Source: an uncultured Bacilli bacterium (lineage in GTDB: Bacteria; Bacillota_I; Bacilli_A; RF39; UBA660). Taken from it: a DNA stretch of 64,000 nt. Below are positions 7,959 through 54,952 of this stretch, piece after piece (position 1 is the first letter of the stretch; the number at the start of each line of letters is the position of its first letter). The notes beneath the pieces were generated by a model that searched no databases, was not told the origin of the DNA, and saw nothing but the letters and a program-made list of their open reading frames with translations. Location: contig CAJTUT010000004.1 in assembly GCA_910579455.1 (NCBI GenBank), positions 1,906 to 65,905 on the forward strand, in the 5' to 3' direction. Both the position numbers and the translations under genes were made by a program.

Positions 7959-9959
7959 ATGAAGAAAAAAGGATTTACGATGGTAGAGTTGCTAGCAGTA
8001 GTAGTAATATTAGGAATCATAGGAACAATAGGAGTAGTAGGAGTAACAAAAATCATTAAATCATCTCACGAAAGGCATAATATAGCTCAAGCAAAACTAT
8101 TTGTATCAGGGGCACAAATGTATTTTACAGACAATAAAAGTAAACTACCAACTAAGACATTTACAAGTAAGGAAATATCCTTAAAAGAGCTACAGGAGAA
8201 AAACTACATAGAAAAAATAGTAGATTATAAAAAGGATGAATATGATAAGGAGAAAAGTTATGCATATGTAACGAAAATGGGGACAGGAAAATATGCATAT
8301 GATGGGGAATTATTAACGAAAGAGGGAGAAAGAACAAAATATAAACCACAGAGTAATGATAATGGAAAAGTGACCTTCTATATAGGAAATCAAAACTTTA
8401 CGAATCGAACTGTATATACAAATGCAAAAAGTAATAAAGTGGTAAAAGTGCTAATTGAAGATCCAGATACGATAGCGGGATATATTATTACATTGTATAA
8501 GGGTGGAAAAGAATTAAGAGAACTAGAATATAAAGAAATAGGAAACCAGACGCAAGTAGAAACAAAAATCACTATTCGACCAGAGGAATATCCGGATGGA
8601 CAGTATAGGATACAAGTAAAGGTAGTAGATATCTACAATAACCAAAAGACAGCAAAATCAGGAACACTAATAGTAGATACAATTGCCCCACAATGTGAAA
8701 CAATCCTTAAAGGAACTAATGGCAAAAACAATTGGTATATAAGTAATGTAGAGACTAAAGCAGAATGTACAGATTTAGATGAAAAAGGAAATAAGAAGAA
8801 TGTAAGTGGATGTGCAAGCAAAGTACTATTAACAACAACAGGAGCGACAGAAAATGTAGAAAACAAGGAAGTAGGGGAATGGAAAATTCAAAAAAATGGG
8901 GTATCATATTTAACCTATAAGGTATCCGATAGAGCAGGAAATGAGACAGTATGTAAAACTACTGAAGTAAAAAAGGATACAGAAAAACCAACCTGTACAT
9001 CCGTTGCTGCAGGACCAGATGCAGTTGATGCAAATGGATATGTTGAATGGACTAATAATAATAGGAATATCACAGGATCTTGCTCAGATAATATTAGTGG
9101 ATGTGTAGTAGAAAATGTCATGAAAATAATCGATACCAGTGCCGAAAAAGCCTCCCCCGGGATAGTTGTTGATAATGCAGGGAATGAAACAAATTGTGGC
9201 GACATTAATGTATATATAGATAAAGGAGTACCAAGATGGAAACCAGATTGTGCAGGAAATCCAAATTGTAATGGAAATGGAATAACTAGTCTTCACAATG
9301 GTCAATGGTTTAATCAAAAACAGTATGAAAATAGTGGAAATAATGGATATAGAATGGGACAATATTACGATCCATCAATTTCTGGGATAAAGGCGATTAA
9401 AAGATATAGGCAAAACAGTTTAGGATTATGGGATTATTTAGATGAGGTTATCTATCCTGGACCAGGAGTAAATGCAAATTTTACGAATAATTATCGCAAA
9501 ACAAATTATTACTATGATGATCAAAATAATAATATAGGATTTCAAATAGTAAACAGGGCAAATTCTACATCTGAAATTTCATCTGTATCTATTAAAATTG
9601 ATAAGGTAGCACCTACAATTGATGGCTTTAATATAGGGGGAAATGGATCTCATAGTGTAAATTGTAGTGATTCCTTGTCGGGAGTAAAAAAACTAGTAAA
9701 ATATAGTACAACACCAGGATGGGTAACAGGGATAGAGATAGATGAGGGTACAGGGGAACCTTGGATGCAAACGACAGCTATATGGGATGCTACAGGTGTA
9801 AAAAATCCTGCATTTGCATGTAAAGATGCAGCTGGAAATAGTTCTACAGCCTCTTATCCTGCTAAATGTACTTCATGTTCAGATGGCTCTGGAAAAGATC
9901 CAAATTGGAAAAACTGCCATAATCATGGTTTAAGTATAAATTGTTCATCCGGACATTAA
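7959..9959 (+). CDS. type IV pilin-like protein with a large cysteine-rich C-terminal extension (modular pilin)
   Basis: Class III signal MKKKG|FTMVELLAVVVILGIIG with Glu at +5. About 600 aa follow, with repeated D..AP.C ... SGC ... D.AGNET.C Ig-like modules and about 19 Cys by my count. Confidence 0.8.
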   Translation: MKKKGFTMVELLAVVVILGIIGTIGVVGVTKIIKSSHERHNIAQAKLFVSGAQMYFTDNKSKLPTKTFTSKEISLKELQEKNYIEKIVDYKKDEYDKEKSYAYVTKMGTGKYAYDGELLTKEGERTKYKPQSNDNGKVTFYIGNQNFTNRTVYTNAKSNKVVKVLIEDPDTIAGYIITLYKGGKELRELEYKEIGNQTQVETKITIRPEEYPDGQYRIQVKVVDIYNNQKTAKSGTLIVDTIAPQCETILKGTNGKNNWYISNVETKAECTDLDEKGNKKNVSGCASKVLLTTTGATENVENKEVGEWKIQKNGVSYLTYKVSDRAGNETVCKTTEVKKDTEKPTCTSVAAGPDAVDANGYVEWTNNNRNITGSCSDNISGCVVENVMKIIDTSAEKASPGIVVDNAGNETNCGDINVYIDKGVPRWKPDCAGNPNCNGNGITSLHNGQWFNQKQYENSGNNGYRMGQYYDPSISGIKAIKRYRQNSLGLWDYLDEVIYPGPGVNANFTNNYRKTNYYYDDQNNNIGFQIVNRANSTSEISSVSIKIDKVAPTIDGFNIGGNGSHSVNCSDSLSGVKKLVKYSTTPGWVTGIEIDEGTGEPWMQTTAIWDATGVKNPAFACKDAAGNSSTASYPAKCTSCSDGSGKDPNWKNCHNHGLSINCSSGH

Positions 9960-12878: not shown

Positions 12879-12913
12879 GAAAGAAAACATATTAATGTTA
12901 TGTTTTCTTTTTT
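12879..12913 (+). terminator. rho-independent terminator of rpmF
   Basis: GAAAGAAAACAT-9 nt-ATGTTTTCTTT hairpin followed by Ts. Confidence 0.8.
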
Positions 12914-12963
12914 GTGGATAATTTTATATTCAAATACTCCATACTTTAGGAATATGAGCAAAA

Positions 12964-13320
12964 TCAGCTTATATAATAGATTGAATGAGTGGATTTTATC
13001 CTAACATCAGTTCTAAGACATGTTAAACCGTTAAATTTAGGGATAATATCATTAATAGGGGTAATTTCAGCATTAGTAATTAAATAAGAGCTTTCAGTGA
13101 TCAGTGTTTGTTTATATCTATTATAGGAGACATAAAAACTATAAAAATGTTCTTGTTTTTTATAGGGGTTAAATTTATCACAATTATTATAAACATAAAG
13201 AGTTCTGGATTCAGAACAACAGGACTGATTGTTGAAGCTAGAGGTATTTTTTTAAATCTATGTTTACACTTTCATCAGAAATGGTAGTTCTATATTTACC
13301 ACTTCTATTTCCAATTTAAG
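12964..13320 (-). pseudogene. unidentified gene remnant (frameshifted, no start codon)
   Basis: The minus strand reads ...GNRSGKYRTTISDESVNID... and then, in another frame, ...YVYNNCDKFNPYKKQEHFYSFYVSYNRYKQTLITESSYLITNAEITPINDIIPKFNGLTCLRTDVRIKSTHSIYYIS*. The family was not recognised. Confidence 0.3.
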
Positions 13321-13566
13321 TAAAAATGACTATTTGTCGTTTACCTTATCCAGATTTAAATATGTATTATGAAATGTGTGTATTGCATTTCGTTAATCAA
13401 AGCCAAGAATATCTTTTCCAAAAAAATAGATATTTCTAAAGTTTCTGTTTTGTATGTTAGAGTAATTGTGAAGAGGTTTTGAGGCGACAAGAATATTATA
13501 GTAACGAAAAATTCTACAGAAAACATAATATATAAAAATAGAAGCTTATTAAACATCGGTGTTAAG

Positions 13567-14030
13567 GAAAATGGTGATGTATATATTCTTTACCATCATT
13601 ACCAAATCTACAGATTTGATTGGAACAGTTAATTTTTCTGCAGGATTGAAAAATCTTCATAATGTTTTGCGACAATTTAAGGGAAACATGGCTTTTTATT
13701 TGCACTATATTGTGGTGAAACCTATAAGTGCAATATCAAATAAAAAAATAGTATATAGTTGTATAAAATCAAATCATTTATGAGGATGCTGAAAAACTTG
13801 AAATTCCAATTATAAAAGAAGCAAGTCTTCGGGAGATGAATAATGGTGATTTAGCTGGTATGAAAAATGACCTAGCTGAGGAAAAATATCCAAATGGAGA
13901 AAGTCCTGTTGAGTTTTATAACCGTATCTATAGTTGGTTTATGGATTTTTTATATCATATTGTGAAAAATATTGAGTGGAATAACAAAAAAAGTCGTTTA
14001 AGGTGGAGAATTGTAGTTTGCATGTTTTAA
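13567..14030 (+). pseudogene. histidine phosphatase (phosphoglycerate mutase family) pseudogene
   Basis: Degenerate RHG-like start (VYILYHHYQIYRFDWN). Later, in another frame, SLREMNNGDLAGMKNDLAEEKYPNGESPVEFYNRIYSWFMDFL. Interrupted by frameshifts and stops. Confidence 0.5.
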
Positions 14031-14584
14031 ATATTTCAACCATGCAATTTGAAAAAGAAAATTACGTCGATTTTATATTAAATAAATAATTTAGAAATGA
14101 GTAAAGCAATATGGAATTATATTTTTGCCTGATTAAAATGCAATTTAATATGGAAATAGGGAATGACTATGAGTACGAAAGGTATCTTGAAAACTGGATA
14201 GCAGATGACGATTTTTCTTCTTCAGCTGTCTTGGGGGTACTGGAGGCAACAGGAGGGAATAAGGAAGATAAGAAGGCAGAGATTTTGATAATAAGTTGCC
14301 AAGGATATATCCGATATTGAACACTAGATAAATCATTATTCTAGAAAGATATTTGTTTTTCGTACTTCAGCTGAAATGTTTGATAAGGAAGTTGCTATAA
14401 TTACATAAAAAGAGCAGACTAGAGGACTATAAGAAATAAAGGATGACGTAAGATAGTCTTTTTGTGATACACGAAAATAGTAAATATGCACAAAAATCAC
14501 ACAGTAAGACCGTACAAAATAACGAAACGGAGAAATGTGACAAAAAAGGTTGGAATTTTTAATGAGTAAACAACGCAACAGTTT

Positions 14585-14640
14585 TTTATATTGACAAATC
14601 GCTCTAGAGGGGATATTATGTAAGTATAAAGTAAATAAAT
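14585..14640 (+). promoter_or_regulatory. promoter/leader cassette copy A
   Basis: TTGACA (14591-14596), a 17-nt spacer, then TATTAT (14614-14619). About 80 percent identical over roughly 55 nt to the copy at 38882-38938. Also related to the copy at 21431-21480. Confidence 0.6.
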
Positions 14641-14643
14641 ACG

Positions 14644-15525
14644 GTGGTGATGGTAGTGAAAAAGAGATTTAAAAAGAACTATAAATTAATATTAGGAATC
14701 ATAATAGGAGTGATTATATCAGGAATAGGAGTTTATGCAGAAACTACAATATCAAGTTCTGATATCTCTTATGACAATTCAAAATCAGGATTAAAGTCAA
14801 CCGATATGAAAGGAGCAATCGATGAGTTGTATACTAAGATTCAGGAACCAGGTGGAGGTAAATTTGTTGCTGCGTATACATAAAATGAAGATACTAAGTC
14901 TAGTAGCTATTGTATGACAGGGGAAGAATCTACCTGTAAATCTACCGATTGTTATAAAATGAGTAAGATAATTAAAGGCGGAAGTTGTAAGGCAGGAGAC
15001 ATAATCCTATATAGAGTAAATGATTCTAGTATAGTTAAATTTCATAATATTGAATTTGAATCAGGTAGTGAAACTTTCAAAATGATAAGCCACGATAATA
15101 TAGTTGATAGTACAAAATGGAGTAATTCCTCAGAACTCTCAGATGGTGCAATATTGGCTAGGGAAGCCTTAAGATTAAAAACACAATCATGGACAAATGT
15201 TATTTCAAGAGGAGGATATAGTACTGGTATAGAAACAAATGCTATAGATAGATTTGGTACCCCTAGCTTTGTATCTGACTCATCCACTAGGACAAGTATG
15301 GTAACTGTAAGAGACTTAATTGGTTTAGGGTGTGAAGCTTATTTAGCAGACTCTTGTCCGAAATGGATGACACAGGGTAAGTTTTGGACTAGTGATTGGT
15401 ATCTAAGTTCAGGATCAGCTCCTAGGGCTTGGGCTATAAACGATGGACAACTTATCACAAAGGACAATACTGATACTATAGGAGTTAGAGCTGTCGTATA
15501 TATTAATCCAATTATAGATTTATAG
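14644..15525 (+). pseudogene. secreted DUF1566/lectin-like protein interrupted by one in-frame TAA (14881-14883)
   Basis: ORFs 14644-14883 and 14914-15525 are in the same frame. AAYT*NEDTKSSSYCMTGEESTCKSTDCYK aligns with KAYNYNDDNTAGNYCLTGDEDTCEKTECYK of the 43005 gene, so the stop aligns with a Tyr codon. Confidence 0.7.
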
Positions 15526-18324: not shown

Positions 18325-21300
18325 TGTATGGACAAAAGAGCAATTAGATGCAATTCATTTGGAAGGAAATAATATTATTGTATCAGCAGGAGCAGGTAGT
18401 GGAAAAACTGCGGTTTTATCAGAAAGGGTATTAAGAAAAATCGATGATGGAATCTCAATTAATCAAATACTAATCTTAACATTTACCAATGCCGCTGCTA
18501 AGGAAATGAAAGATAGGATTAGGGATAAATTAAGAAAAGCAAACAAGCAAGAACAAATAGATTTAATCGATCACAGTTATATTACTACCTTTGATAGTTT
18601 TTCGTTAAGTATTGTTAAAAAGTATCATACGATTTTAAATATTAGTAAAGATATAGGAATTACGGATTCTTCGCTTTTAGATATTAAAAAACAAGAGTTA
18701 ATGGATGAAATATTCAATTGCTATTATAGCGAAAAAAATAAAAAATTCAAAAAGCTTATTACTAACTTTTGCTTAAAAGAAGATGATTCATTAAAAAAAT
18801 TACTTATAAGATTGAATGATAAACTAGATATGAGATATAATAAATTGGATTATTTAAATCAATACATAAAAACATATTACCAAGAGGATTTTATAGAAGA
18901 AGGTATAGCTTTATATTATGATAAAATAAACGATTTGATTTTAAAAATCAAGGAAATAGTAAGAAGACTGAATCATTATATGGATTTTGATTATATTATT
19001 AAGTTGGAGGATAAGCTTTCAAAATTATGGAAAGCGAAAGACTATAATGATGTAGTATTAGCCTTAGATTTTAGGTTACCCAATTTGCCTAAGAATCAGG
19101 ATTCATTTGTTAAGTGTTTAAAAGAAGAATTAAGTAGTTATATTAAAGAAATAAAGAGTCTTTGTATCTATAAAAATACAGATCAAATAAAAGAAGAATA
19201 TTTTGCTACTAAGGATAATCTAGAAATCATAGTGGAAATTATAAAAGAGCTAGATCAAAGATTAAAAGAAGAGAAAGTAAAAAGCAATATGTATGATTTT
19301 TCAGATATCAGTAGAATGGCAATTGAAGTAGTTACACAAAATGAGGAAATAAAGGAAGAATTGAAAAATAGTTTTCAGGAGATCATGATAGATGAGTATC
19401 AAGATACCAATGATATCCAGGAGTATTTTATTTCTTTAATTAGTAATCACAATGTATATATGGTAGGGGATATCAAACAATCCATTTATAGATTTAGGAA
19501 TGCGAATCCTTATATATTTAAAAATAAGTATGATAATTACATACAAGCTAAGGAAGGATTAAAGATAGATTTATTAAAAAATTTTCGTTCAAGAAAAGAA
19601 GTGTTAGAAGATATTAATATCGTATTTAATGATTTGATGAGTGATGATATGGGAGGAGCGGACTATAAAAATAGTCATCAAATGATTTTCGGAAATAAAA
19701 CTTATCAGGAAGAAGGTAAAACAAACCAGAACTATCATTTATCTATCCTTACTTATTTAGAGGGTCCCAATTTTTCTAATAGTGAAAAAGAAATTTTTAT
19801 AATTGCAGAAGATATTAAAGAAAAAATAGATTCTAATTATCAGATATTCGATAAGGATCGAAAAATTTTAAGGAAAATGGAATATAGTGATTGTGTAATT
19901 TTAATGGATAGAAGTACTGATTTTGATCGATATAAAAAAATCTTTGAGTTTTTAAAAATTCCTCTTACCTTGTATCAAGATGAAGAATTAAAAAGTGGTT
20001 ATGACATCCTAGTAATAAGAAATTTATTAAAACTAATCAAGTGCATGGATTGTGAGCAATACCAAGAAGAATTTAAATATGCATTTTTATCGGTTGGTAG
20101 GAGCTTTTTGTTTAGAATAGAGGATGACAAACTATTCGAATACTTAACTCAGAACACTTATAAGGAAAGTGAGATTTATAAGAAACTAGAAGAGGCATAT
20201 CAATATTTTTATGAGATGTCCTTAAAGATGTTTTTCATGAAATTATGTGAAATTTTTGAGTATGAAGAAAAATTATTAGAAATAGGAAACGTTATGGTAG
20301 CAAGAGTACGATTAGAATATTTTTATCATTTGTTAGATGAATTTTCAAAAAATGGAAAGGATTTAGCCGACTTTATTATTTATTTAGATACCATATTTGA
20401 AAAAGAGCATAAAGTGAATTTTTCTCTTAATACAACAGATGCCAATTCTGTAAAAATTATGACCATTCATAAATCAAAGGGATTAGAGTTTCCAATTTGT
20501 TATTTCTCGGGATTTACAAAAGAATTTAGTTTTAGAGAATTCAATGATCTAATACTATATAGTAATCAATATGGTATTATTATTCCCTATTTTAATGAGT
20601 ATATAAAACCTACCATTTATAAAAATTTGTTAAAAATAGATATGAAAAAAGAAGAGATCAGTGAAAAAATAAGATTGTTTTATGTAGCATTAACTAGAGC
20701 AAAGGAAAAGATGATTATTGTAATACCAGAACGGGAAGGTGAAATTCTTGGCTTAGAAAAAATAAAATCATTTTATGATATGATGCAATTAATGTATTCT
20801 AATATTTGCCAGTATTACATTAGAAAGGATCCTAGTTGTACTAAAGACTATATGACATCGCTTTATAAGAAAGATGAATTTGATTTAAATTGTGGAGATG
20901 AAACAGAAATGGAGGAACCATCTTTTCTATTTCAAGAAGAAAGAAAAGAAAAACTATCTAAAAATACCACTCAGTTATTGACAAAGGAAGATTCGGTTAA
21001 AATGAGATATGGGAGTTATATCCACAAAATATTAGAATTCTTAGATTTTAACAATCCAAATTATCAGGGGATTGAAGATAATATAGTACCGAAAATAAAA
21101 AGTTTTGTATCAAGTAGTCTAATCCAGAGTAATTTAGATGCTAAATTTTATCATGAATACGAGTTTACTTATAATAAAGAGGAAAAGAGAGTACATGGAA
21201 TAATTGATTTAATAATAGAGAATAAAGATGAAATTATTATTGTAGATTATAAATTAAAAAAGATAGAGGACGCTGCTTACCAAGAGCAATTAAGAGGATA

Positions 21301-21394
21301 TCAAAAGATCATCGAAAATAGAACAAATAAGAGAGTTACTACCTATTTATATTCTATTTTAGATGAGAAATGGTATCCTATTGAACAATGCTAG
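18317..21394 (+). CDS. addA: helicase-nuclease AddAB, subunit A
   Basis: UvrD-type helicase (GAGSGKTAV, DEYQDTN) and a C-terminal nuclease (GIIDLI...VDYKLKK). At 1025 aa it is shorter than the Bacillus protein. Confidence 0.9.
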   Translation: MTNVWTKEQLDAIHLEGNNIIVSAGAGSGKTAVLSERVLRKIDDGISINQILILTFTNAAAKEMKDRIRDKLRKANKQEQIDLIDHSYITTFDSFSLSIVKKYHTILNISKDIGITDSSLLDIKKQELMDEIFNCYYSEKNKKFKKLITNFCLKEDDSLKKLLIRLNDKLDMRYNKLDYLNQYIKTYYQEDFIEEGIALYYDKINDLILKIKEIVRRLNHYMDFDYIIKLEDKLSKLWKAKDYNDVVLALDFRLPNLPKNQDSFVKCLKEELSSYIKEIKSLCIYKNTDQIKEEYFATKDNLEIIVEIIKELDQRLKEEKVKSNMYDFSDISRMAIEVVTQNEEIKEELKNSFQEIMIDEYQDTNDIQEYFISLISNHNVYMVGDIKQSIYRFRNANPYIFKNKYDNYIQAKEGLKIDLLKNFRSRKEVLEDINIVFNDLMSDDMGGADYKNSHQMIFGNKTYQEEGKTNQNYHLSILTYLEGPNFSNSEKEIFIIAEDIKEKIDSNYQIFDKDRKILRKMEYSDCVILMDRSTDFDRYKKIFEFLKIPLTLYQDEELKSGYDILVIRNLLKLIKCMDCEQYQEEFKYAFLSVGRSFLFRIEDDKLFEYLTQNTYKESEIYKKLEEAYQYFYEMSLKMFFMKLCEIFEYEEKLLEIGNVMVARVRLEYFYHLLDEFSKNGKDLADFIIYLDTIFEKEHKVNFSLNTTDANSVKIMTIHKSKGLEFPICYFSGFTKEFSFREFNDLILYSNQYGIIIPYFNEYIKPTIYKNLLKIDMKKEEISEKIRLFYVALTRAKEKMIIVIPEREGEILGLEKIKSFYDMMQLMYSNICQYYIRKDPSCTKDYMTSLYKKDEFDLNCGDETEMEEPSFLFQEERKEKLSKNTTQLLTKEDSVKMRYGSYIHKILEFLDFNNPNYQGIEDNIVPKIKSFVSSSLIQSNLDAKFYHEYEFTYNKEEKRVHGIIDLIIENKDEIIIVDYKLKKIEDAAYQEQLRGYQKIIENRTNKRVTTYLYSILDEKWYPIEQC

Positions 21395-21430
21395 ATTAGT
21401 ATTGTTTTTTTAAAGGAAAAGGCTAACATT

Positions 21431-21480
21431 CCATTGACAAATGAGTATCGGAAAGGGTATACTTAAAACATATAGTGAAG
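21431..21480 (+). promoter_or_regulatory. promoter/leader cassette copy C
   Basis: TTGACAAAT (21434-), an 18-nt spacer ending in GGG, TATACT (21458-21463), then TAAAACATATAGTGAA. Resembles copies A and B. Confidence 0.55.
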
Positions 21481-21510
21481 AGTAGAGTGAAAGGTAAAAA
21501 GGAAAAATTT

Positions 21511-21948
21511 ATGAAATGGATAAAAAATAAAAACGAGAGAATGATACTGGTTGTTGTATCTATTATTCTTATAATAGGGACAATTTTGATTATTATATTT
21601 TCTGGAAACAGAAAGGAAAATATAAAGAGTGTAGAGGAAATTATTTCTCAAAATGAGGAGTCTATTATTTTTGTAAATAATAGTGATTCAAAAAAATGCA
21701 AAAATTGCCAAAAGATAAAGAGGTATTTAGATAAGAATAAAATGACATATGTGTTATACGATGTAAGGAAGCATACAAATGATGAATATATAGAGATGTT
21801 ACAATCCTTATCAATTAATCCTAATAGTTTTCATTATCCCGCAATTATTTATGTGAAAAATGGAAAAGCATATGCTGATTTAATTAATATAAAAGATCCA
21901 GATAAGATAGAAAAATTTATAAAAAAATATGATATAAAGAGTAAATAG
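21511..21948 (+). CDS. membrane-anchored thioredoxin-fold CxxC protein (PedC/BrcD-like)
   Basis: N-terminal TM helix (MILVVVSIILIIGTILIIIF), then IIFVNNSDSKKCKNCQKIKRYL...YPAIIYVKNGK. The start is taken at the ATG at 21511. Confidence 0.7.
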   Translation: MKWIKNKNERMILVVVSIILIIGTILIIIFSGNRKENIKSVEEIISQNEESIIFVNNSDSKKCKNCQKIKRYLDKNKMTYVLYDVRKHTNDEYIEMLQSLSINPNSFHYPAIIYVKNGKAYADLINIKDPDKIEKFIKKYDIKSK

Positions 21949-21997
21949 TACATAAGTACTATTTTAACAAGATATTTTAGTGATGGAGTGAATATAT

Positions 21998-24900
21998 ATG
22001 AATAAATTATTATCTAAAAAAAGAACAATGATGATGTTAATACTATTATTAGTAGCTGTAGTAGGGGTGAGTTATGCATGGTTACAGGTAACTTTGTATA
22101 GCAATTCTACTAGTACTGTACAAGTAGGAACTCTAAATTTAAAATTGGGTGAAACTAAAGAGGGAATCCAGTTGAAAAATGCCATTCCAATATCAGACGA
22201 AAAAGGATTAAAAACAGAGGAATATACTTTTACATTAACAAACACTGGAGATATCACAAGTGAATATACCGTTTATTTGGATGATGTGGAGTTAGCAGAA
22301 GATCAAGTGAGATTGTCAGACGATACAGTGAAATATAGTCTAGTAAAAAATGATGAAGTTAGACCCCCTGCTTTAGTTTCTACTTTAGGCAAAAATGCTA
22401 ATAGAATATTAGATAGTGGAAAGTTAGATCCAGGAGCTATCAATACTTATACATTAAAGGTTTGGATTGATTATGATGCTGATAACTCCATCATGGGAAA
22501 GGTCTTCTCTACAAAAATAAGAGTAGAGGCAACACAAGAAAATATAACTTCTGACAGTTCAGAAAAAATAGAATTAGATATAAATAGCGGACCACAAAGA
22601 ATAGATTTAAAAGGAGAAGAAGCTAGTAAATTTATTTTTGATAGTAGTGATAAAGAAATTATAGAAGTAGATGAAAATGGAATGCTTACTCAAAAAGGTC
22701 CAGGACAGGCAATTGTTGTAGTTACCAATAAGGAAACCAGTGAAACTAGAAAAATTACTGTTTCTGTAACAAAAACTTTAACTATTACTTATTACAAAGA
22801 TGCGGGGATATCATTTATAGAAAAGGAGACCGATACTTGTAAATTGGAAGCAAAAGGACAAACTAGTTGTCAAGTAATTCTACCAAAAACAACAGTAAGT
22901 GATGGGTATACATTAATAGGTTGGAATACAAGTGCTTCTGCCACTAACGGAAAAGAAGAATTGGAAAAAATAGAAATTAGCGAGGATACTGCATATTATG
23001 CAATTAGTTCTAAAAATTCTGTGAAGTTTATTGCTAATTTTGATGAAAATGGAGTCGGAGTTAGCTCTATTAAACAGTCTAGGATAAGCTGTAAGACAAA
23101 ACCAAATCAAGAAGAAAAATGTGAAATTATTCTTCCTAAATTTTCTGTAAAAGAAGGCTATGAAGGACTTGGATGGAGTACGGATAAAGATGCAACGGAA
23201 GGTATTGCACCAGGTCAAGCGGTGTCATTAACAGAGGATACAACTTTCTATGCAATTACTAAGAAAAAGGCAGTTACATTTGAAGCGATTTTCTATAAAA
23301 ATGGTGCTTCTACTCAAACAAATGAAATAGGAGAACCAGTAGAGAGTAATACAGTAACTAGGAGTTGTACTACAGAAGAGATTTATAACAATAAAGAAGA
23401 AAGCAAAAATACACCTACCTGTGAGATTGTATCTCCTACTATAGAAGGTAGTAGTAATACGCCAACTGTATTGGGTTATGCGACAAATAAAGAGGCTACA
23501 GAAGCTACATTGGGAACCAATCAAACTATTCAATTATCAAAAGATATCAAATATTATGCAGTGACTAGAAAAGATCCTATGACTAGAACAGCAACATTTA
23601 TTAAAAATGGTACAGGTGTAGAAACGATTGGCGGACAATCAGGTAGTATTACTCAGGAATGTGAAATAAAGGCTAGCTATAATGGAAAAAAACAAGAGAC
23701 ATCTTGTAATGTGATAGCACCAAGTATTGAAGTGAAAGAGGGATACTCAAAAGTAGGCTGGAATATCAACCCTAATGCTGAAATCGGGTTTGATAATATT
23801 ACATTGGAAAAGGATGAAACTTTATATTCGATAAGCAAGAAAAACGCAGTTACTTTGACCGCAAAATTTCATAAAAATGGTGCTGCTGCACAGGATGGGT
23901 CAACCGATGAAATTTATGAAAAAACCTGTGAATTACCAGAAGTATATAATGATCAAATACAAAATACTTCATGTAAAATAAAATTACCAGTAATAACAGC
24001 TAGTCCTAATACCCCAACTATAGTGGGATATGTACAAACAGCAACAGCGATTGTACCAATTGCTGGAGATGAGGTGACAATAACTGGTACTGAAGATTAT
24101 TACGCTATTACCAAAAAAGAGGCAGAAGACGTAAATGTTACTTATCAATTAAATGGAGCTAGATATGCAACCTTGGCTGGTAAAAGATATACGAAAAATT
24201 TTACGGTATTAGTATGCCGTAAACCTGAAACATGGAATGGAGCAAAACAGGAAGATTGTCAATTTGTGCTCCCAACAATAAAGGGAAGTACAAATACTCC
24301 AACAATCCTTGGATGGAGTACTGCTTTTGATAATCATGAGGCACTATATCAATCTGGACAGGAACAGGCAACAATATCTAGTAGTACAGTTCTATATACA
24401 CAAACGGTAAGAAATGCAGTTACATATAGAGTAAAGAGCTATAAAGCAGGAAAGAACGTTTCTTCAATTCAGGCAACTAATGCAAAAAAAAGTTGTACAA
24501 TAGATGCTACATATAATGGCGAAAAGCAAGAAACAGAATGTACAATAGGAGGAAAAGATTTACCAACCATTATAGCAAAAGAAGGATATGAAGCAGCAGG
24601 ATGGACGAGTATAGATGCTGATTCTTTGGATGGTAGTTCAACTCTTACTTTAAATAAAACAAATACCAATAAAACGTGGTATGCTTACGCCTTAGGACAT
24701 ACTTTCACAGTAGAATATTATAGCGATGGTAAAAAAGATAGTGAGGAACAGCTTTCTATATCTGATAATATTATGCTAAAAACTATTGAGAAAAAAGGAT
24801 ATACTTTAAAAGGATGGGATACCTCTTCCGCAGCTACTACAGTGGTATATAAGGCAGGAGAGGCAATTTCTGGATTAATTCCACAGAAAGGACAAGTAAT

Positions 24901-27900
24901 TAAATTATATGCAGTATGGGAGGATAAAAATGCTCCAGTATGTAGTTTTGGACATGTGTCAGTGACTACTACCGGAAATACCACTGAAATGAAGTTAACC
25001 TGTACAGATTATGGTAGCGGATTAAGAGAACAATGGTTAACTAAGGATTCCTTTATTCTATCAGATTCTACTTATGGAGAAATTGTTTCTGTAGGAAATC
25101 CTGTTGCAACCGAGAATGGCTATGAATACCTCCTTACATTAAAAGGTCTAAGTAGTAGTACAGAGGGAAGCGCAACAGAAAATGTTCCTGGTCGATTTAA
25201 TATTAAATTAAAAGAAAACAGTATAACAGATGAGTTGGGAAATGCCAATGAGAGTGTAACTAGTGATCATGTTGAGGTTTATGGACATCGTCATACGGCA
25301 ACCTTTACTAAAGATAATAATACTGTAGAATCCATCGGATCTACCAGTAGTAGTTGCATTACAAAGGGTACTAGTTTAACTTGTGAAGTTACAACGCCTA
25401 CTATTACAGCAAAGTCAGACTATGAAGTAATAGGTTGGAATTCCGATTCTAATGCAACAGAAGGAATTGAGCAAAACAGTAAGGTAACCCTATCTAAGGA
25501 TATTACATATTATACGATTATGGGGTATCGTGGTAGAAAAATAAGAGCCACTTTCCATTTAAATGGAGCAAAACTATTAGACGATCAAGACGGGGATATT
25601 ACAAAGGAATGTAGAATTAGTGCAAGCCAATCTTCTGATGCGGAGGCATCTTGTGATATAATAGTTCCAATTATAAGTGCAAGCGAGAATACTCCAAGAG
25701 TTTTAGGTTTTGCTACTACAGCTAATGAAACAAATGAAGCAAACATGATTAATCAGGCAAACCAAAAAGTTGTAATTCATATTACAAATGACATCGATTA
25801 CTATGCTATTACCAGAAAGGATGCCATTACCTATCATGCGGAGTTTATTCGAAACGGTATAGGGGTTACAAGTATTGGAAAAAATCAAGATCAATGTACA
25901 ATAGATGCAGCTTATAATGGAAATTTACAGAATACCTCATGTCAAATTAATGAACCAAATATAGAAATGAAATCAGGATATACCAAAATTGGGTGGAACA
26001 CGGAGGATGATGCAAAAACATCCCTTGTAAGTAATGGAAAGCTAGAAATCACAACTGATAATATGAGGTATTTCTCAATTAGTAAGAAAGATAAAGTTAC
26101 TTTAACAGCAAGTTTTTATAAAAATGGATCTTCTTCTGTAGAAGGAATTCAAGACGGGGAAGATAAGGTAGATAGAACTTGTGAATTAAAAGAAGTATAT
26201 AATAATGAAGCACAAGAAACTCAGTGTACAATATCTACTCCAAATATTGTGGCTAGCAGTAATACTCCAAAGGTATTGGGATATCATACAGATAAAGATG
26301 CAATCACTGGAATATTACAGCCAAATATAGAACTTGCACTTACTAATAATATAAAATACTATGCAATTACTACAAATGAACCAAAAAGAATTCAAATTAC
26401 TTTTCATAGAAATAACGCCACATCCTTAGATCATTCATCAGAAGATACAATAGATAAAATATGTAATATTCCTCAAACATATAATGGAGTAAAGCAAGAT
26501 GTTAATTGTGATATTACTTCTCCCACAATTGAAGCAAGTGAAAATACACCAGATGTAATTGGTTATTCTACCGCTTCAGATAAACACGATATGGAATGGG
26601 AAGCAGGAACAACGAAAAAAGTTAGTGAAAGTGCAAATTATTATGCCCAAACGAAAAAAGATGAAATAACTTACCGAATAGGAGCGTTTGCAGTCGGAAA
26701 AAATGTATCTAGTATTTCATCAACAGAGGGAATGAATTGTAAAATAGCTACCACATATAATGGAAAATCTCAGCCAAACAGTTGTACAATAGAGACATCT
26801 AATTTACCTACCATAACGCCAAAAGTGGGGTATACTTCAATAGGATGGACAAGAAGTAGTACAAATACAGAAAATTCATCATCGGCAATTACCCTAACAG
26901 AAGACGTTGATACATATTATGCCCATGCAATATCGAATAGTTATACGATTAAATATTATGATCAAGATACTGAAGTAGGATTTACTGGTGTTAAGGTAGA
27001 TGAAGAAATAGATTTAAGTACTGCAAATGAGTTGGGAATTAAAAAAGAAGGATATAACTTTAAAGGTTGGTCTACTTCTTTAGGAGATTCTACAATCGCT
27101 TATCAAGATGGTGAAACAGTAAGTAATTTGGCTACAGAAGAGGGAACTATTGTAAATTTATATGCAGTATGGCAAGATGATATTGCACCTGTTTGTCATT
27201 TTGAAAATGAAGGAGCAATAACAACCGGTACCACCAAGGAATTAATATTAACATGTACTGACCAAGGTAGTGGTTTATCTTCTCAAAATCTTACAGTAGA
27301 TAATTTTCAAACTTCTAATGGTTATGGAAGTGTTATGTCAGTATCAGCACCAGAACAGATTAATAATGGATATAAATATATAGTAACAGTAAAAGGTATT
27401 TCTTCTGGAGGGGAAGGACAGACTTTAGGATCATTTACTACTATGTTAAAGGCACAAGCTATAAAAGATAATGCAGATAATAGGAACCAACAAATAGAGA
27501 GTGCTAATATTACTGTAAATGGTATTACCTTTACAGCACATTTCATTAATCAAGGAATTGGTATAACTTCGGGTGATGACTTTGAATCAACAAAATCATG
27601 CACTACAACAGGAAGTGACACCTCCTGTGCAATTGTATTTCCAGATATACATGTACTAGAAAATTATACAGTAGTTGGATGGAACACTAATCAGAATGCA
27701 ACAGTAGCTAGTCACACTAGTGGCTCAAACTCCCTTAATCATGATAATACTGATGAGAACAATACACAAACCTATTATAGTATTACATATAAAAATGCAA
27801 TTACATATAGTGTTGATTGGAATGCTAATGGAGCAGGTTTATCTCAAACAACAAGTACGAGTAGCTGTACTATTGATAAAGTATATAATGAAACAGAAGA

Positions 27901-28405
27901 GACAAAGCAGCCAACTAGTTGTACGGTAACAGCACCAACTATAACCCGTGCTGGTTATGATATTATAGGATACCATACGGATGAAAATGCAACAGAATCA
28001 ATCTTTTCAAGCGGATCAGTTCTAGAATTAGATCATGATGATGGTCCATACTATGCCATTACCAAAAAGGATATTAACATTACATGGACAAAGGATAACG
28101 ATGATACAAAAATTGGTGCTACAAAAAGTAGTTGTTCAATCTATAATAAACAAGAAAAATGTAATGTAAACATTCCCTCTATTGAACATGATACAAGAAT
28201 AATAGAAGGATGGTATGATTTATCGGGAAATAAATTTTCAGATAATCCAGGAGATCAAACTATTACCAAACAGGTAAGTGATTCGGCTACTTATATAGCA
28301 AAAACTAGATTATATAGAGCTGATGAAGTTTCTTATAGTAATGCATCATCCGCTTGTACAAATGCTCAATGTGCAATTGATGAAATTAGTGGAATGTTAA
28401 AATAA
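21998..28405 (+). CDS. giant (2135 aa) secreted repeat protein
   Basis: The N-terminus is TasA/camelysin-like with a SipW-type signal anchor (LLLVAVVGVSYAWLQ...VQVGTLNL...LTNTGDITSEYTVYL). About 20 Listeria-Bacteroides-type (Flg_new-like) modules follow (GY.F.GW...LYAVW). They fall into two divergent super-repeats of about 750 aa, each ending in an Ig-like module. I count about 38 Cys arranged as 19 pairs. Confidence 0.85.
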   Translation: MNKLLSKKRTMMMLILLLVAVVGVSYAWLQVTLYSNSTSTVQVGTLNLKLGETKEGIQLKNAIPISDEKGLKTEEYTFTLTNTGDITSEYTVYLDDVELAEDQVRLSDDTVKYSLVKNDEVRPPALVSTLGKNANRILDSGKLDPGAINTYTLKVWIDYDADNSIMGKVFSTKIRVEATQENITSDSSEKIELDINSGPQRIDLKGEEASKFIFDSSDKEIIEVDENGMLTQKGPGQAIVVVTNKETSETRKITVSVTKTLTITYYKDAGISFIEKETDTCKLEAKGQTSCQVILPKTTVSDGYTLIGWNTSASATNGKEELEKIEISEDTAYYAISSKNSVKFIANFDENGVGVSSIKQSRISCKTKPNQEEKCEIILPKFSVKEGYEGLGWSTDKDATEGIAPGQAVSLTEDTTFYAITKKKAVTFEAIFYKNGASTQTNEIGEPVESNTVTRSCTTEEIYNNKEESKNTPTCEIVSPTIEGSSNTPTVLGYATNKEATEATLGTNQTIQLSKDIKYYAVTRKDPMTRTATFIKNGTGVETIGGQSGSITQECEIKASYNGKKQETSCNVIAPSIEVKEGYSKVGWNINPNAEIGFDNITLEKDETLYSISKKNAVTLTAKFHKNGAAAQDGSTDEIYEKTCELPEVYNDQIQNTSCKIKLPVITASPNTPTIVGYVQTATAIVPIAGDEVTITGTEDYYAITKKEAEDVNVTYQLNGARYATLAGKRYTKNFTVLVCRKPETWNGAKQEDCQFVLPTIKGSTNTPTILGWSTAFDNHEALYQSGQEQATISSSTVLYTQTVRNAVTYRVKSYKAGKNVSSIQATNAKKSCTIDATYNGEKQETECTIGGKDLPTIIAKEGYEAAGWTSIDADSLDGSSTLTLNKTNTNKTWYAYALGHTFTVEYYSDGKKDSEEQLSISDNIMLKTIEKKGYTLKGWDTSSAATTVVYKAGEAISGLIPQKGQVIKLYAVWEDKNAPVCSFGHVSVTTTGNTTEMKLTCTDYGSGLREQWLTKDSFILSDSTYGEIVSVGNPVATENGYEYLLTLKGLSSSTEGSATENVPGRFNIKLKENSITDELGNANESVTSDHVEVYGHRHTATFTKDNNTVESIGSTSSSCITKGTSLTCEVTTPTITAKSDYEVIGWNSDSNATEGIEQNSKVTLSKDITYYTIMGYRGRKIRATFHLNGAKLLDDQDGDITKECRISASQSSDAEASCDIIVPIISASENTPRVLGFATTANETNEANMINQANQKVVIHITNDIDYYAITRKDAITYHAEFIRNGIGVTSIGKNQDQCTIDAAYNGNLQNTSCQINEPNIEMKSGYTKIGWNTEDDAKTSLVSNGKLEITTDNMRYFSISKKDKVTLTASFYKNGSSSVEGIQDGEDKVDRTCELKEVYNNEAQETQCTISTPNIVASSNTPKVLGYHTDKDAITGILQPNIELALTNNIKYYAITTNEPKRIQITFHRNNATSLDHSSEDTIDKICNIPQTYNGVKQDVNCDITSPTIEASENTPDVIGYSTASDKHDMEWEAGTTKKVSESANYYAQTKKDEITYRIGAFAVGKNVSSISSTEGMNCKIATTYNGKSQPNSCTIETSNLPTITPKVGYTSIGWTRSSTNTENSSSAITLTEDVDTYYAHAISNSYTIKYYDQDTEVGFTGVKVDEEIDLSTANELGIKKEGYNFKGWSTSLGDSTIAYQDGETVSNLATEEGTIVNLYAVWQDDIAPVCHFENEGAITTGTTKELILTCTDQGSGLSSQNLTVDNFQTSNGYGSVMSVSAPEQINNGYKYIVTVKGISSGGEGQTLGSFTTMLKAQAIKDNADNRNQQIESANITVNGITFTAHFINQGIGITSGDDFESTKSCTTTGSDTSCAIVFPDIHVLENYTVVGWNTNQNATVASHTSGSNSLNHDNTDENNTQTYYSITYKNAITYSVDWNANGAGLSQTTSTSSCTIDKVYNETEETKQPTSCTVTAPTITRAGYDIIGYHTDENATESIFSSGSVLELDHDDGPYYAITKKDINITWTKDNDDTKIGATKSSCSIYNKQEKCNVNIPSIEHDTRIIEGWYDLSGNKFSDNPGDQTITKQVSDSATYIAKTRLYRADEVSYSNASSACTNAQCAIDEISGMLK

Positions 28406-38938: not shown

Positions 38939-39086
38939 AAAGCTATTATTATGTTAATTGATCTATGATTAATACATATTCATAATAGAAAGGTATATAT
39001 ATTATTGAAAATGGATATTGCACTAATAAAATAAATATGCTAATATAATAGTTAGTTAGAATGTAAAATATGGGGTGAATATTATA

Positions 39087-50142: not shown

Positions 50143-50216
50143 GCAGATAAACTGAAACAAATTCTTAACTTCTCATACAATACTTTAGGTAACGTATAAA
50201 GGAAGGGAAGAGTTAT

Positions 50217-50423: not shown

Positions 50424-50471
50424 AACGTACTAATATAGTGCGTTTTTTCATATTATTAATTAGGTGATATT

Positions 50472-52347: not shown

Positions 52348-52501
52348 AATTACTAGTAACAGCAAGAATAAGAATTGTAGATTCATTTGAATAAAAAGGG
52401 ATGATAAGATATTATACAAAATGTAAATTTGTATAATATCTTAATTTTTTTAGGAAAAATGTTCAACTTCTACTAATAATATGGTAGGAGGTAAAATAAG
52501 A

Positions 52502-54950: not shown

Positions 54951-54952
54951 AT

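What the first reader, a model, noticed from the sequence alone, without database searches (positions are those of the whole stretch)
21511..21948. Membrane-anchored PedC/BrcD-like CxxC thioredoxin encoded directly upstream of a 38-cysteine giant secreted protein
The 145-aa product has one N-terminal TM helix and an extracytoplasmic thioredoxin-like fold with CKNC. Its layout (CxxC, then ...YVLYDV..., then ...YPAIIYVKNGK) resembles the PedC/BrcD 'bacteriocin transport accessory' oxidoreductases. It shares a promoter cassette with the giant gene, and only a weak hairpin separates the two genes. The giant protein's 38 Cys form 19 regularly spaced pairs, one pair per module. Firmicute exoproteins usually avoid cysteine, so a dedicated disulfide-forming or isomerising partner for a giant adhesin is a plausible two-gene unit that I do not know to have been described. 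It may also serve the other Cys-rich proteins here (7959, 43005). An alternative partner is the single-Cys bacteriocin pair at 54953-55263.
Basis: inference. Interest (0 to 1): 0.65.

Follow-up and report, generated by a model that had tools for sequence, protein, structure and literature searches.

The report
Membrane thioredoxin gene paired with giant adhesin
A small membrane-anchored thioredoxin-fold gene is co-transcribed with, and in related gut bacteria usually sits beside, a 2,135-residue surface protein whose repeat modules each carry a conserved cysteine pair, so it is probably the folding helper that closes those disulfides.

Summary
ORF 21511-21948 encodes 145 aa: one N-terminal TM helix, then a minimal thioredoxin/glutaredoxin fold with CKNC and a cis-Pro loop. 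ORF 21998-28405 encodes 2,135 aa with 38 Cys in 19 short-range pairs.

Three new lines of evidence support a two-gene unit.
- One conserved sigma-70-like promoter lies upstream. There is no terminator between the genes. Assembled RNA contigs from four mouse-gut metatranscriptomes cross the junction.
- In 13 lineages of this family, a homologous giant Cys-paired protein lies within three genes in 10, in three different genomic contexts.
- All 38 Cys are conserved at 49% overall identity. The two Cys are two of only four invariant columns across 16 modules.

- The protein is not a PedC/BrcD member. It gives no TIGR01295 hit, and no bacteriocin genes lie nearby in any lineage.
- "Dedicated" is too strong. 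Two lineages keep the CxxC gene with no giant nearby. About a quarter of family representatives lack CxxC, and two of the three CxxC-less loci fetched still sit beside large Cys-rich exoproteins.

Biochemistry, topology and the oxidant are inferred, not shown. I rate it a new variant of a known kind (substrate-linked extracytoplasmic thiol-disulfide oxidoreductase), of moderate interest.

The parts
21434..21463 (+). Sigma-70-like promoter (TTGACA, 18 nt spacer, TATACT) for the two-gene operon
   Evidence: It matches 11 of 12 consensus positions and is the only + strand promoter-like site in 21300-22100. The -35 and -10 elements are conserved in L005 and in the lineage whose giant is 47% identical (L018).
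21511..21948 (+). Gene for the 145-aa membrane-anchored thioredoxin-fold protein
   Evidence: Translation. Pfam Glutaredoxin 24.5 bits against a gathering score of 22.9. A family profile matches PDB thioredoxins at E = 3e-5. The AF2 model has pLDDT 82.5, and its Foldseek top hits are thioredoxins.
21541..21603 (+). Single N-terminal transmembrane helix (aa ~11-31), predicted signal anchor with N-terminus inside
   Evidence: Hydropathy maximum at aa 12-30. The N-terminal flank carries more K/R than the C-terminal flank in 52 of 68 family members. AF2 models a helix at aa 7-30. There is no Cys for a lipobox and no evident cleavage site. The topology is inferred.
21697..21708 (+). CKNC active-site motif (C63, C66) at the N-terminus of helix 66-75
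   Evidence: CxxC is present in 54 of 55 close relatives, with a variable dipeptide (CEKC, CKNC, CKDC and others).
21838..21840 (+). Pro110, the thioredoxin-fold cis-Pro, just before strand 111-116
   Evidence: It is the only invariant column across 44 distant family members. It aligns with the cis-Pro loop of PDB thioredoxins.
21943..21964 (+). Weak AU-rich hairpin overlapping the stop codon; not a terminator
   Evidence: Centroid energy -7.9 kcal/mol, z = -0.92. The terminator scan does not call it. It is absent from L018. RNA contigs read through it.
21998..28405 (+). Gene for the 2,135-aa secreted or surface protein with 19 Cys pairs
   Evidence: Pfam Flg_new at E = 1.1e-23. It is homologous to the giants next to thioredoxin genes in other lineages.
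21998..22567 (+). N-terminal signal or anchor (…VVGVSYAWLQ…) plus a ~160-aa Cys-free domain related to short TasA/camelysin-family proteins
   Evidence: It is 44-60% identical to 184-344-aa proteins. Two of these (P0207, P0237) pass Pfam Peptidase_M73. The same G[VT]SYA[WFL] N-terminus occurs in every giant whose N-terminus is present in the fetched loci. The link to M73 is transitive only, because the giant itself gives no direct hit.
22766..28330 (+). Array of repeat modules, each with one loop-closing Cys pair: 16 Flg_new-type modules plus 2 modules of another type
   Evidence: Module alignment A8 has only C, C, P and G invariant. The AF2 module model has pLDDT 89.9, with the Cys at the end of strand 20-23 and the start of strand 40-42. 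The best PDB match is the InlB B-repeat. All 38 Cys are conserved against L018 at 49% identity.
28319..28402 (+). C-terminal motif ADEVSYSNASSACTNAQCAIDEISGMLK containing the 19th Cys pair
   Evidence: It is conserved in L005, L018 and L026. A related motif follows the TM helix of small Cys-rich proteins in the same islands.

Best explanation
The 145-aa product is a type II (N-in, C-out) membrane-anchored protein with a minimal thioredoxin/glutaredoxin fold. It carries a canonical CxxC (CKNC) and a cis-Pro loop on the outer face of the membrane. Its gene is the first of a two-gene operon; the second gene encodes a 2,135-aa surface protein.

The surface protein has a TasA/camelysin-like N-terminal domain followed by about 18 beta-rich modules. 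Each module is stapled by one short-range Cys pair.

The most likely mechanism is as follows. While the giant polypeptide leaves the Sec channel module by module, the nearby anchored oxidoreductase takes each newly emerged Cys pair through a mixed disulfide and closes the loop. It may also reshuffle wrong pairings between neighbouring modules. It is then re-oxidised by an unidentified acceptor, possibly small-molecule disulfides, as has been shown for one clostridial DsbA.

The giant is probably its main client but not its only one. Other Cys-rich exoproteins of the same gene islands are likely clients too.

Shown here: the fold, the motifs, the operon, the conserved pairing of the two genes, and the constraint on the Cys pairs. 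Inferred: topology, catalytic direction (oxidase or isomerase), client identity and the oxidant.
For: Fold and active site:
- Pfam Glutaredoxin is just above its gathering score.
- The family profile matches PDB thioredoxins, with CxxC and cis-Pro aligned.
- The AF2 model (pLDDT 82.5) gives beta-alpha-beta-alpha-beta-beta-alpha after a TM helix. Its top Foldseek hits are thioredoxins with probability 1.00.

Outside orientation:
- The N-terminal flank has more K/R in 52 of 68 members.
- Multi-domain relatives have one N-terminal TM helix followed by 2-3 thioredoxin domains with no further TM helix.

Operon:
- There is a single promoter and no terminator.
- The promoter and the giant's ribosome-binding site are conserved down to the L018 lineage.
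- RNA contigs span 21650-22529, 21743-22539, 21716-22473 and 21743-22364 in four metatranscriptomes. Depth there is 8-23, against 0-4 in the flanking addA and M23 genes.

Conserved pairing:
- A homologous giant lies immediately downstream in the window lineage (L005), L018, L026, L016, L020, L021 (truncated) and L022.
- A giant lies 1-3 genes upstream in L001/L010 and L012. In L027 only the >=495-aa C-terminal end of a large Cys-containing protein is on the contig; it matches part of the L012 giant.
- The pair occurs in three contexts: addAB…M23, a mutS fragment, and ylbL…parE.

Cys pairs:
- 38 of 38 are conserved at 49% identity.
- They are 2 of the 4 invariant module columns.
- Cys counts in the other complete giants are also even (38 in L005, L018 and L026; 32 in L001).
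- The pair brackets a loop between adjacent strands.

Precedents:
- Substrate-linked oxidoreductases: PedC, BdbA and BlpG (PMC4919988).
- Partner-free recycling of a clostridial DsbA by small-molecule disulfides (PMC12453122).
Against: - No biochemical or topological experiment exists.
- Two lineages (L014/L015 and L011) keep a CxxC copy with no giant within the fetched flanks (about 7-10 kb on each side).
- 39 of 149 family representatives lack CxxC, although a few of these are fragments.
- Of the three CxxC-less loci fetched, two (L024, L025) sit next to large Cys-containing proteins that share modules with the giants. The third (L023) sits among smaller Cys-rich secreted proteins. Redox chemistry therefore cannot be what holds the association together everywhere.
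- The older conserved neighbours are housekeeping genes (ylbL protease, parE/parC). This fits a general envelope function.
- No DsbB, VKOR or CcdA-type partner was found among the 26 window ORFs scanned with Pfam, and none of the other ORFs that contain CxxC looks like one.
- The organism lives in a reducing gut habitat, so the oxidant is unexplained.
- The RNA evidence comes from unstranded assembled contigs, not from mapped reads.
Confidence: 0.6

Rival explanations
1. It is a general housekeeping extracytoplasmic oxidoreductase, the organism's functional equivalent of DsbA, BdbD, SdbA or MdbA. It would serve all Cys-containing exoproteins: the pilins, the small Cys-rich proteins and the giant. 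Its position next to the giant would reflect inherited synteny or an insertion hotspot rather than a specific partnership.
For: - The backbone ylbL - small TM protein - thioredoxin gene - parE/parC is conserved in many lineages.
- The gene and its CxxC persist in L014 and L011 with no nearby giant.
- The window holds other Cys-rich exported proteins: a 666-aa pilin-like protein with 16 Cys, the 43005 protein with 9 Cys, and the split 14644-15525 gene.
- Only one copy of the thioredoxin gene is in the window.
Against: - When the thioredoxin gene left the ylbL/parE backbone (window lineage, L018, L026), the giant moved with it and stayed immediately downstream under one promoter.
- Adjacency in 10 of 13 lineages and in three contexts is far above the chance expected for one or a few giant genes per genome. 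That estimate is a rough inference.
- The two genes are co-transcribed.
Confidence: 0.22
2. It is mainly a redox-independent escort or chaperone, analogous to the non-catalytic b' domain of protein disulfide isomerase. It would bind the unfolded giant or related exoproteins at the membrane. The CxxC would be an accessory feature that many members have lost.
For: - 39 of 149 representatives, plus P0008, lack CxxC. They still keep the cis-Pro loop and the other conserved positions.
- Two of the three CxxC-less loci fetched (L024, L025) flank large Cys-containing proteins that share modules with the giants. The third (L023) flanks small Cys-rich secreted proteins.
Against: - In the clade that contains the window protein, CxxC is kept in 54 of 55 proteins at 41-79% identity.
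- The motif sits at the canonical helix N-terminus opposite the cis-Pro.
- CxxC-less genomes may carry a catalytic paralogue elsewhere. This was not testable here.
Confidence: 0.1
3. It is a PedC/BrcD-type bacteriocin maturation accessory protein that serves the two-peptide bacteriocin locus at 52481-55263.
For: - The overall layout (TM helix plus CxxC thioredoxin fold) is the same as described for PedC (PMC4919988).
- 9 of 44 distant family members hit TIGR01295 weakly.
- One distant relative is labelled 'predicted bacteriocin transport accessory protein' (P0056).
- The window encodes two double-glycine-leader peptides with one Cys each.
Against: - The window protein gives no TIGR01295 hit even at E<=10, where the cut-off is 120 bits.
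- The bacteriocin locus is 33 kb away and has its own exporter and accessory gene.
- No bacteriocin or C39-ABC genes lie next to the thioredoxin gene in any of the 13 lineages.
- The mature peptides have one Cys each, so no intramolecular disulfide is possible.
Confidence: 0.03
4. It is a cytoplasm-facing glutaredoxin/NrdH-like redox protein tethered to the membrane, functionally unrelated to the giant.
For: - The best curated-model matches are glutaredoxin-type: Pfam Glutaredoxin, and GlrX_YruB/NrdH at low scores.
Against: - All NCBIfam glutaredoxin-type scores (about 15-30 bits) are far below their cut-offs of about 66-120 bits.
- The charge bias favours an N-in, C-out orientation.
- The operon and conserved synteny link it to exported proteins.
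- Multi-domain relatives have a single N-terminal TM helix.
Confidence: 0.03

Closest known systems
PedC/BrcD family bacteriocin maturation disulfide isomerases (TIGR01295; PedC of the pediocin PA-1 operon, BlpG)
   Same: - A small exported or anchored thioredoxin-fold protein with CxxC, in low-GC Gram-positives.
- Encoded next to the Cys-containing secreted product it is thought to mature (PMC4919988).
- There is a distant sequence link: 9 of 44 family members hit the model, best E = 2.4e-7.
   Different: - The window protein does not match the model at all.
- The presumed client is a 2,135-aa multi-module surface protein, not a ~40-aa peptide.
- There is no ABC exporter or immunity gene in the unit.
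- The structure 1zma is no closer than generic thioredoxins (rank 28).
BdbA/BdbB of the Bacillus subtilis SPbeta sublancin operon, as a substrate-linked thiol-disulfide oxidoreductase
   Same: - An oxidoreductase gene embedded in the operon of the disulfide-containing product it matures. This is cited in PMC4919988 and is otherwise from my general knowledge.
   Different: - That system has a DsbB-like quinone-linked partner (BdbB) next to it. No such partner is seen here.
- Its client is a small peptide.
General Gram-positive extracytoplasmic oxidoreductases: SdbA (Streptococcus gordonii), MdbA (Actinomyces/Corynebacterium), DsbA/BdbD
   Same: - A membrane-tethered thioredoxin-superfamily enzyme with CxxC that folds secreted proteins, including adhesins and pilins (PMC5112981, PMC5478893 and PMC9974433 abstracts).
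- It may work without a DsbB-type partner (PMC12453122).
   Different: - The soluble domain is only ~105 aa with a minimal fold. The model shows no DsbA-type helical insertion, and there are no AhpC/TSA or Redoxin Pfam hits.
- Those enzymes are not encoded in an operon with one giant client.
Listeria-Bacteroides repeat (Flg_new, PF09479) surface proteins, prototype the InlB B-repeat (PDB 2y5p)
   Same: - The giant's modules match Flg_new at E = 1.1e-23.
- The modelled module is closest to the InlB B-repeat.
   Different: - Each module here has an extra 9-20-residue loop closed by an invariant Cys pair.
- The structural match is weak (E = 0.064, TM 0.49-0.62).

Membership tests
Thioredoxin-fold superfamily (CxxC oxidoreductases) | beta-alpha-beta-alpha-beta-beta-alpha core, with CxxC at the N-terminus of the first core helix and a cis-Pro before the third core strand | tested here: met
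   AF2 elements are E51-56, [C63..C66], H66-75, E81-84, H90-99, [P110], E111-116, E119-124, H131-139. The top Foldseek hits are thioredoxins with probability 1.00. The family profile aligns CxxC and cis-Pro with PDB thioredoxins at E = 3e-5.
PedC/BrcD (TIGR01295) | Score at or above the curated cut-off of the family model (120 bits) | tested here: not met
   The window protein gives no hit at E<=0.1 or E<=10. Even P0056, a distant relative labelled as a bacteriocin accessory protein, reaches only 53 bits.
PedC/BrcD (TIGR01295) | Encoded in a bacteriocin operon with the structural peptide, an immunity gene and a C39-ABC exporter | tested here: not met
   The neighbours are addAB, the giant gene and an M23 peptidase. 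The C39-ABC locus is 33 kb away. No such genes are adjacent in any of the 13 lineages.
PedC/BrcD (TIGR01295) | Exported or anchored thioredoxin-like protein with CxxC | tested here: met
   The feature is as described for PedC in PMC4919988.
DsbA/BdbD family | Thioredoxin fold interrupted by a ~65-residue alpha-helical domain; CPxC-type motif; Pfam DSBA or Thioredoxin_4/5 match | tested here: not met
   Only one helix (90-99) lies between strand 81-84 and the cis-Pro strand. There are no DSBA-type Pfam hits. The motif is CKNC.
TlpA/ResA/SdbA-type (AhpC-TSA/Redoxin) membrane-anchored reductases and oxidases | Pfam AhpC-TSA or Redoxin match and the extended fold with an N-terminal beta-hairpin and a central insert | tested here: not met
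   No such Pfam or NCBIfam hits appear at E<=0.1. The soluble domain of ~105 aa is too small.
Glutaredoxin (PF00462) and NrdH/YruB-like | Pfam score above the gathering score; NCBIfam equivalog cut-offs; cytoplasmic glutathione- or NrdH-type function | tested here: inconclusive
   The Pfam score of 24.5 bits is marginally above the gathering score of 22.9. The NCBIfam YruB score is 21.7 bits against a cut-off of 88.6, and the NrdH score is 14.6 against 85.8. The TM anchor and the genomic context argue against a classical cytoplasmic glutaredoxin role. Glutathione-binding residues were not examined.
Flg_new / Listeria-Bacteroides repeat proteins (for the giant) | Repeated PF09479 modules | tested here: met
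   83.6 bits against a gathering score of 27, with 5 stretches passing individually. 16 modules are alignable. The InlB B-repeat is the best structural match.
TasA/camelysin (Peptidase_M73, PF12389) N-terminal domain (for the giant) | Direct match to PF12389; SipW-type signal peptide | tested here: inconclusive
   The giant's N-terminus gives no direct Pfam hit. It is 44-51% identical to the short proteins P0207 and P0237, which pass PF12389. The resemblance of the SYAW motif to SipW-type signals is recalled from memory. No SipW gene is in the window.

The most novel reading that the evidence does not exclude
An undescribed oxidative-folding system in uncultured anaerobic gut Bacilli. An anchored minimal thioredoxin, with no DsbB or VKOR partner, would work co-translocationally as a module-by-module disulfide stapler for a giant adhesin that has a TasA-like anchoring domain. 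It would belong to a conserved surface-protein island (ylbL protease - small TM beta-protein - thioredoxin - giant - small Cys-rich 'AIDEL' proteins). In that island, CxxC-less paralogues would have become pure chaperones.
Probability: 0.3. Interest if true: 0.7.

Novelty: new variant of a known kind. Interest (0 to 1): 0.5.

Why it matters
Exported proteins of Firmicutes are generally viewed as Cys-poor, and the validated clients of their Dsb-like enzymes are few (PMC2823432).

Here an uncultured mouse-gut member of the Bacilli expresses in vivo a giant surface protein with 19 conserved Cys pairs. Its own thioredoxin-fold gene lies on the same transcript. The pairing recurs across a family of several hundred sequence clusters (313 representatives at 50% identity). 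That family has no curated model of its own, and the four NCBI-sourced copies looked up carry no name.

If the mechanism holds, it gives three things:
- a defined enzyme-client pair for studying oxidative folding in strict anaerobes that show no DsbB or VKOR partner in the region examined;
- a natural model for vectorial, module-by-module disulfide formation in a very long repeat protein;
- a handle on adhesins of a poorly known gut lineage.

The CxxC-less relatives offer a built-in evolutionary contrast between catalyst and chaperone.

Tried and rejected
- PedC/BrcD membership was rejected on the model score and the genomic context.
- The bacteriocin pair as client was rejected. It is distant, has its own exporter, has one Cys per peptide, and is never adjacent in relatives.
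- I tested whether loss of CxxC goes with loss of Cys in the neighbouring proteins. It does not: the neighbours of the CxxC-less loci L023-L025 still contain Cys. This test therefore does not support a purely redox link.
- The first metagenome scan, using a 21-sequence alignment, failed for lack of a conserved stretch. A 7-sequence subset gave only 3 loci.
- The GTDB representative-genome scan gave only 3 species, so whole-genome co-occurrence statistics were not possible.
- Searching with the giant's N-terminal domain returned only short paralogues, not other giants. The inverse test (how often a giant has a thioredoxin neighbour) could not be run.
- I looked for DsbB, VKOR or CcdA among the window ORFs that I scanned. 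None was found.
- The module's structural search gave only a weak InlB match. The tools return no model coordinates, so the Cys-Cys distance could not be measured.
- Literature searches found no description of this gene pair in the held library. This is limited evidence of absence.
- NCBI copies of the family carry no name.
Full report
**1. Observation**

The window has 29% G+C. Runs holding this sequence are mouse-gut metagenomes. The closest genome records are labelled uncultured Bacilli or Tenericutes MAGs.

Its features are:
- ATG 21511, with an AAGGA ribosome-binding site, agrees with the starts of homologues.
- It has one strongly hydrophobic helix at aa ~11-31.
- CKNC lies at aa 63-66, and a YP cis-Pro loop at aa 109-110.

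Forty-nine bases downstream, ORF 21998-28405 encodes a 2,135-aa protein with 38 Cys. They form 19 short-range pairs (spacing 5-20) separated by 65-137 residues.

'One pair per module' needs a small refinement. Sixteen pairs are in Flg_new-type modules, two are in a different module type (APVCxF…LTCTD), and one is a C-terminal CTNAQC pair.

**2. What the small protein is**

Curated models give only marginal matches:
- Pfam Glutaredoxin scores 24.5 bits against a gathering score of 22.9. Thioredoxin is below threshold.
- All NCBIfam matches are far below their cut-offs.

A profile of 44 family members matches PDB thioredoxins at E = 3e-5, with CxxC and the cis-Pro aligned.

AlphaFold2, using a 26-sequence alignment, gives pLDDT 82.5. 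The model has a TM helix at 7-30 followed by helix-beta-alpha-beta-alpha-beta-beta-alpha. C63/C66 sit at the N-terminus of helix 66-75, and P110 precedes strand 111-116.

The best Foldseek hits are ordinary thioredoxins with probability 1.00. The Streptococcus pneumoniae 'bacteriocin transport accessory protein' 1zma appears only at rank 28. There is no DsbA-type helical insertion.

It is therefore a minimal thioredoxin/glutaredoxin fold on a single N-terminal anchor.

The outside orientation is inferred from two observations:
- Positive charge is biased to the N-terminal flank in 52 of 68 members.
- Relatives with two or three tandem thioredoxin domains have only one TM helix, at the N-terminus.

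**3. The family**

- A word-indexed search found 8 proteins, and 56 with a profile.
- An exhaustive profile search of 1.84 billion cluster representatives found 313 at E<=1e-3 and 105 at E<=1e-10. Most are 130-170 aa with the same layout, and some have two or three tandem domains.
- None of the four NCBI-sourced copies looked up carries a name.
- In the clade containing the window protein, CxxC is kept in 54 of 55 proteins with a variable dipeptide (CEKC, CKNC, CKDC and others). Among the broader representatives, 39 of 149 lack it, and a few of those are fragments.
- Nine of 44 distant members touch TIGR01295 (PedC/BrcD) weakly, best E = 2.4e-7.
- The window protein gives no TIGR01295 hit even at E<=10, where the cut-off is 120 bits.

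**4. Operon**

- The only + strand promoter-like site between 21300 and 22100 is TTGACA-18-TATACT at 21434-21463. No terminator-like site was found.
- The hairpin over the stop codon is weak (z = -0.92). It is absent from the L018 lineage. The promoter hexamers and the giant's GGAG ribosome-binding site are conserved there.
- In four mouse-gut metatranscriptomes, assembled contigs run from inside the small gene into the giant gene: 21650-22529, 21743-22539, 21716-22473 and 21743-22364.
- Their depths are 8-23, against 0-4 over the addA 3' end, the promoter region and the convergent M23 gene.
- This uneven depth argues against DNA carry-over.
- The contigs are unstranded, and the first 140 nt of the small gene are not covered. 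Co-transcription is therefore well supported but not formally proven.

**5. Conservation of the gene pair**

I examined 13 lineages of the family (41-79% identical to the window protein):

| Arrangement | Lineages |
|---|---|
| Homologous giant immediately downstream | window/L005, L018 (2,146 aa, 38 Cys), L026 (2,152 aa, 38 Cys), L016, L020, L022 (each truncated by the contig end), L021 (first 421 aa only) |
| Giant one to three genes upstream | L001/L010 (2,714 aa, 32 Cys), L012 (>=2,457 aa, 31 Cys), L027 (only a >=495-aa C-terminal piece, 9 Cys, matching part of the L012 giant) |
| C-terminus of a smaller Cys-rich secreted protein upstream | L028 |
| No giant within the fetched flanks (about 7-10 kb on each side) | L014/L015, L011 |

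Every giant whose N-terminus lies on the fetched contig shares the G[VT]SYA[WFL] N-terminus. BLASTP links the giants to one another, although L027 is linked only through L012. All show paired Cys.

The pair occurs in three contexts:
- between addAB and an M23 peptidase (window lineage);
- after mutS fragments (L018);
- in a ylbL (PDZ-Lon protease) … parE/parC backbone.

In six lineages a conserved 132-151-aa TM protein precedes the thioredoxin gene.

When the thioredoxin gene left the backbone, the giant went with it. With one or a few such genes per genome, repeated adjacency by chance is very unlikely. That is a rough inference, not a computed statistic.

**6. Are the Cys pairs disulfides?**

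The evidence is indirect but consistent:
- Cys counts are even in all five complete giants (38, 38, 38, 38 and 32).
- All 38 are conserved against L018 at 49% overall identity, whereas most residue types are 33-77% conserved.
- In an alignment of the 16 modules, only C, C, P and G are invariant.
- In the module model (pLDDT 89.9), the first Cys ends strand 20-23 and the second begins strand 40-42. They bracket a lower-confidence loop.
- The fold is closest to the InlB B-repeat, the Flg_new prototype.

**7. Mechanism and rivals**

The best-supported reading is a substrate-linked extracytoplasmic thiol-disulfide oxidoreductase. It would close, and perhaps proofread, one loop disulfide per module as the giant emerges from the membrane.

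The precedent is the set of oxidoreductases encoded next to their Cys-containing products: PedC, BlpG and BdbA (PMC4919988).

No re-oxidising partner was found among the window ORFs scanned. Recycling by small-molecule disulfides, shown for Clostridium botulinum DsbA (PMC12453122), is a possible route.

Two facts limit the claim that it is 'dedicated':
- CxxC copies persist without a nearby giant in two lineages.
- Two of the three CxxC-less loci fetched still sit beside large Cys-containing proteins that share modules with the giants. This leaves room for a general oxidoreductase role (confidence 0.22) or a chaperone role (0.10).

A bacteriocin role and a cytoplasmic role are each unlikely (0.03).

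**8. Premise on cysteine avoidance**

Daniels et al. report that 70% of exported proteins of aerobic Firmicutes lack Cys. The figure is only 33% in anaerobic Firmicutes, and only 2 of 20 anaerobic Firmicutes show an even-Cys bias (PMC2823432).

A giant with 19 conserved pairs and its own thioredoxin gene is still unusual.

**9. Novelty and score**

Substrate-linked thioredoxin-fold oxidoreductases are a known kind. This family, its pairing with giant Flg_new-type surface proteins, its lack of a visible partner and its CxxC-less branch appear to be undescribed in the library I could search.

I rate it a new variant of a known kind, with interest 0.5.

Noticed in passing
window 21998-22567 (giant aa 1-190): The giant's Cys-free N-terminal domain is 44-60% identical to many short (184-344 aa) proteins. 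Two of these, rescanned here, pass Pfam Peptidase_M73 (camelysin/TasA family). The giant may therefore be anchored to, or incorporated into, a TasA-like fibre. The SYAW motif resembles SipW-type signals (from memory). No SipW gene is in the window.
   Followed up: partly
window 28319-28402; window 14644-14883; L005:3-1019; L026:13-807; L023:1051-2022: A motif of the form [ED]VSY…N.Q.AIDE[LI] sits at the C-terminus of the giant. A related motif (ISYDN…GAIDEL) lies just after the TM helix of small Cys-rich secreted proteins encoded in the same islands. This may be an interaction or assembly motif.
   Followed up: no
window 14644-15525: The gene for a small Cys-rich secreted protein is split into two ORFs, 14644-14883 and 14914-15525. 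The region is 54% identical to one continuous reading frame in L005. It is either a frameshift pseudogene or an assembly error.
   Followed up: partly
window 12900-14640: About 1.7 kb downstream of rpmF (L32, 12646-12876) has no ORF of 80 aa or more on the + strand and no Rfam match. It may be a decayed gene region.
   Followed up: no
window 24900-28400: In all four metatranscriptomes the contig depth over the 3' half of the giant gene is several-fold (about 2-10x) higher than over its 5' part. Contigs break near 24.9 kb and 27.4 kb. Possible causes are an internal start, differential RNA stability, repeat-induced assembly breaks, or reads from related strains.
   Followed up: no
window 23289-27547 (giant aa ~431-1103 versus ~1186-1849): The giant contains an old internal super-repeat of about 690 aa, 39% identical over 694 aa. 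The whole series of Cys-pair spacings is duplicated with it.
   Followed up: yes
L001:9536-9979, L012:9558-9974, L014:9368-9766, L016:5530-5958, L021:5160-5567, L022:144-599, L027:1571-1999: A conserved 132-151-aa protein lies immediately upstream of the thioredoxin gene in seven loci (six of the lineages). It has one TM helix, a beta-rich domain and a C-terminal F.ISD motif, and it gives no Pfam match. It is absent from the window. It could be a third component of the system.
   Followed up: partly
P0058, P0059, P0064, P0068, P0070, P0073, P0074, P0078 and others; L023-L025: A sizeable branch of the family has lost CxxC entirely but keeps the cis-Pro loop and the other conserved positions. 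In L024 and L025 these genes sit beside large Cys-containing proteins that share modules with the giants, and in L023 beside small Cys-rich secreted proteins.
   Followed up: partly
window 7959-9959 and 39075-39608: There are two type IV pilin-like proteins with N-terminal methylation motifs. The 666-aa one has 16 Cys and a Big_13 domain, so it is another likely disulfide-bonded exoprotein.
   Followed up: no
window 52481-55263: This is a class II bacteriocin-like locus. It has a C39-peptidase ABC exporter, a 133-aa TM accessory protein with no Pfam match, and two double-glycine-leader peptides (54935-55093 and 55081-55263). Each mature peptide has a single C-terminal Cys.
   Followed up: partly
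window 49636-51401 and 56373-57792: Sporulation-type genes (SpoIIIAH-like and GerM/Germane by Pfam; probable YabP and YqfD judged only from their N-terminal sequences), together with a PBP2-type transpeptidase at 40875-42935, indicate a walled spore-former. This is despite the 'Tenericutes' label on one related MAG.
   Followed up: no
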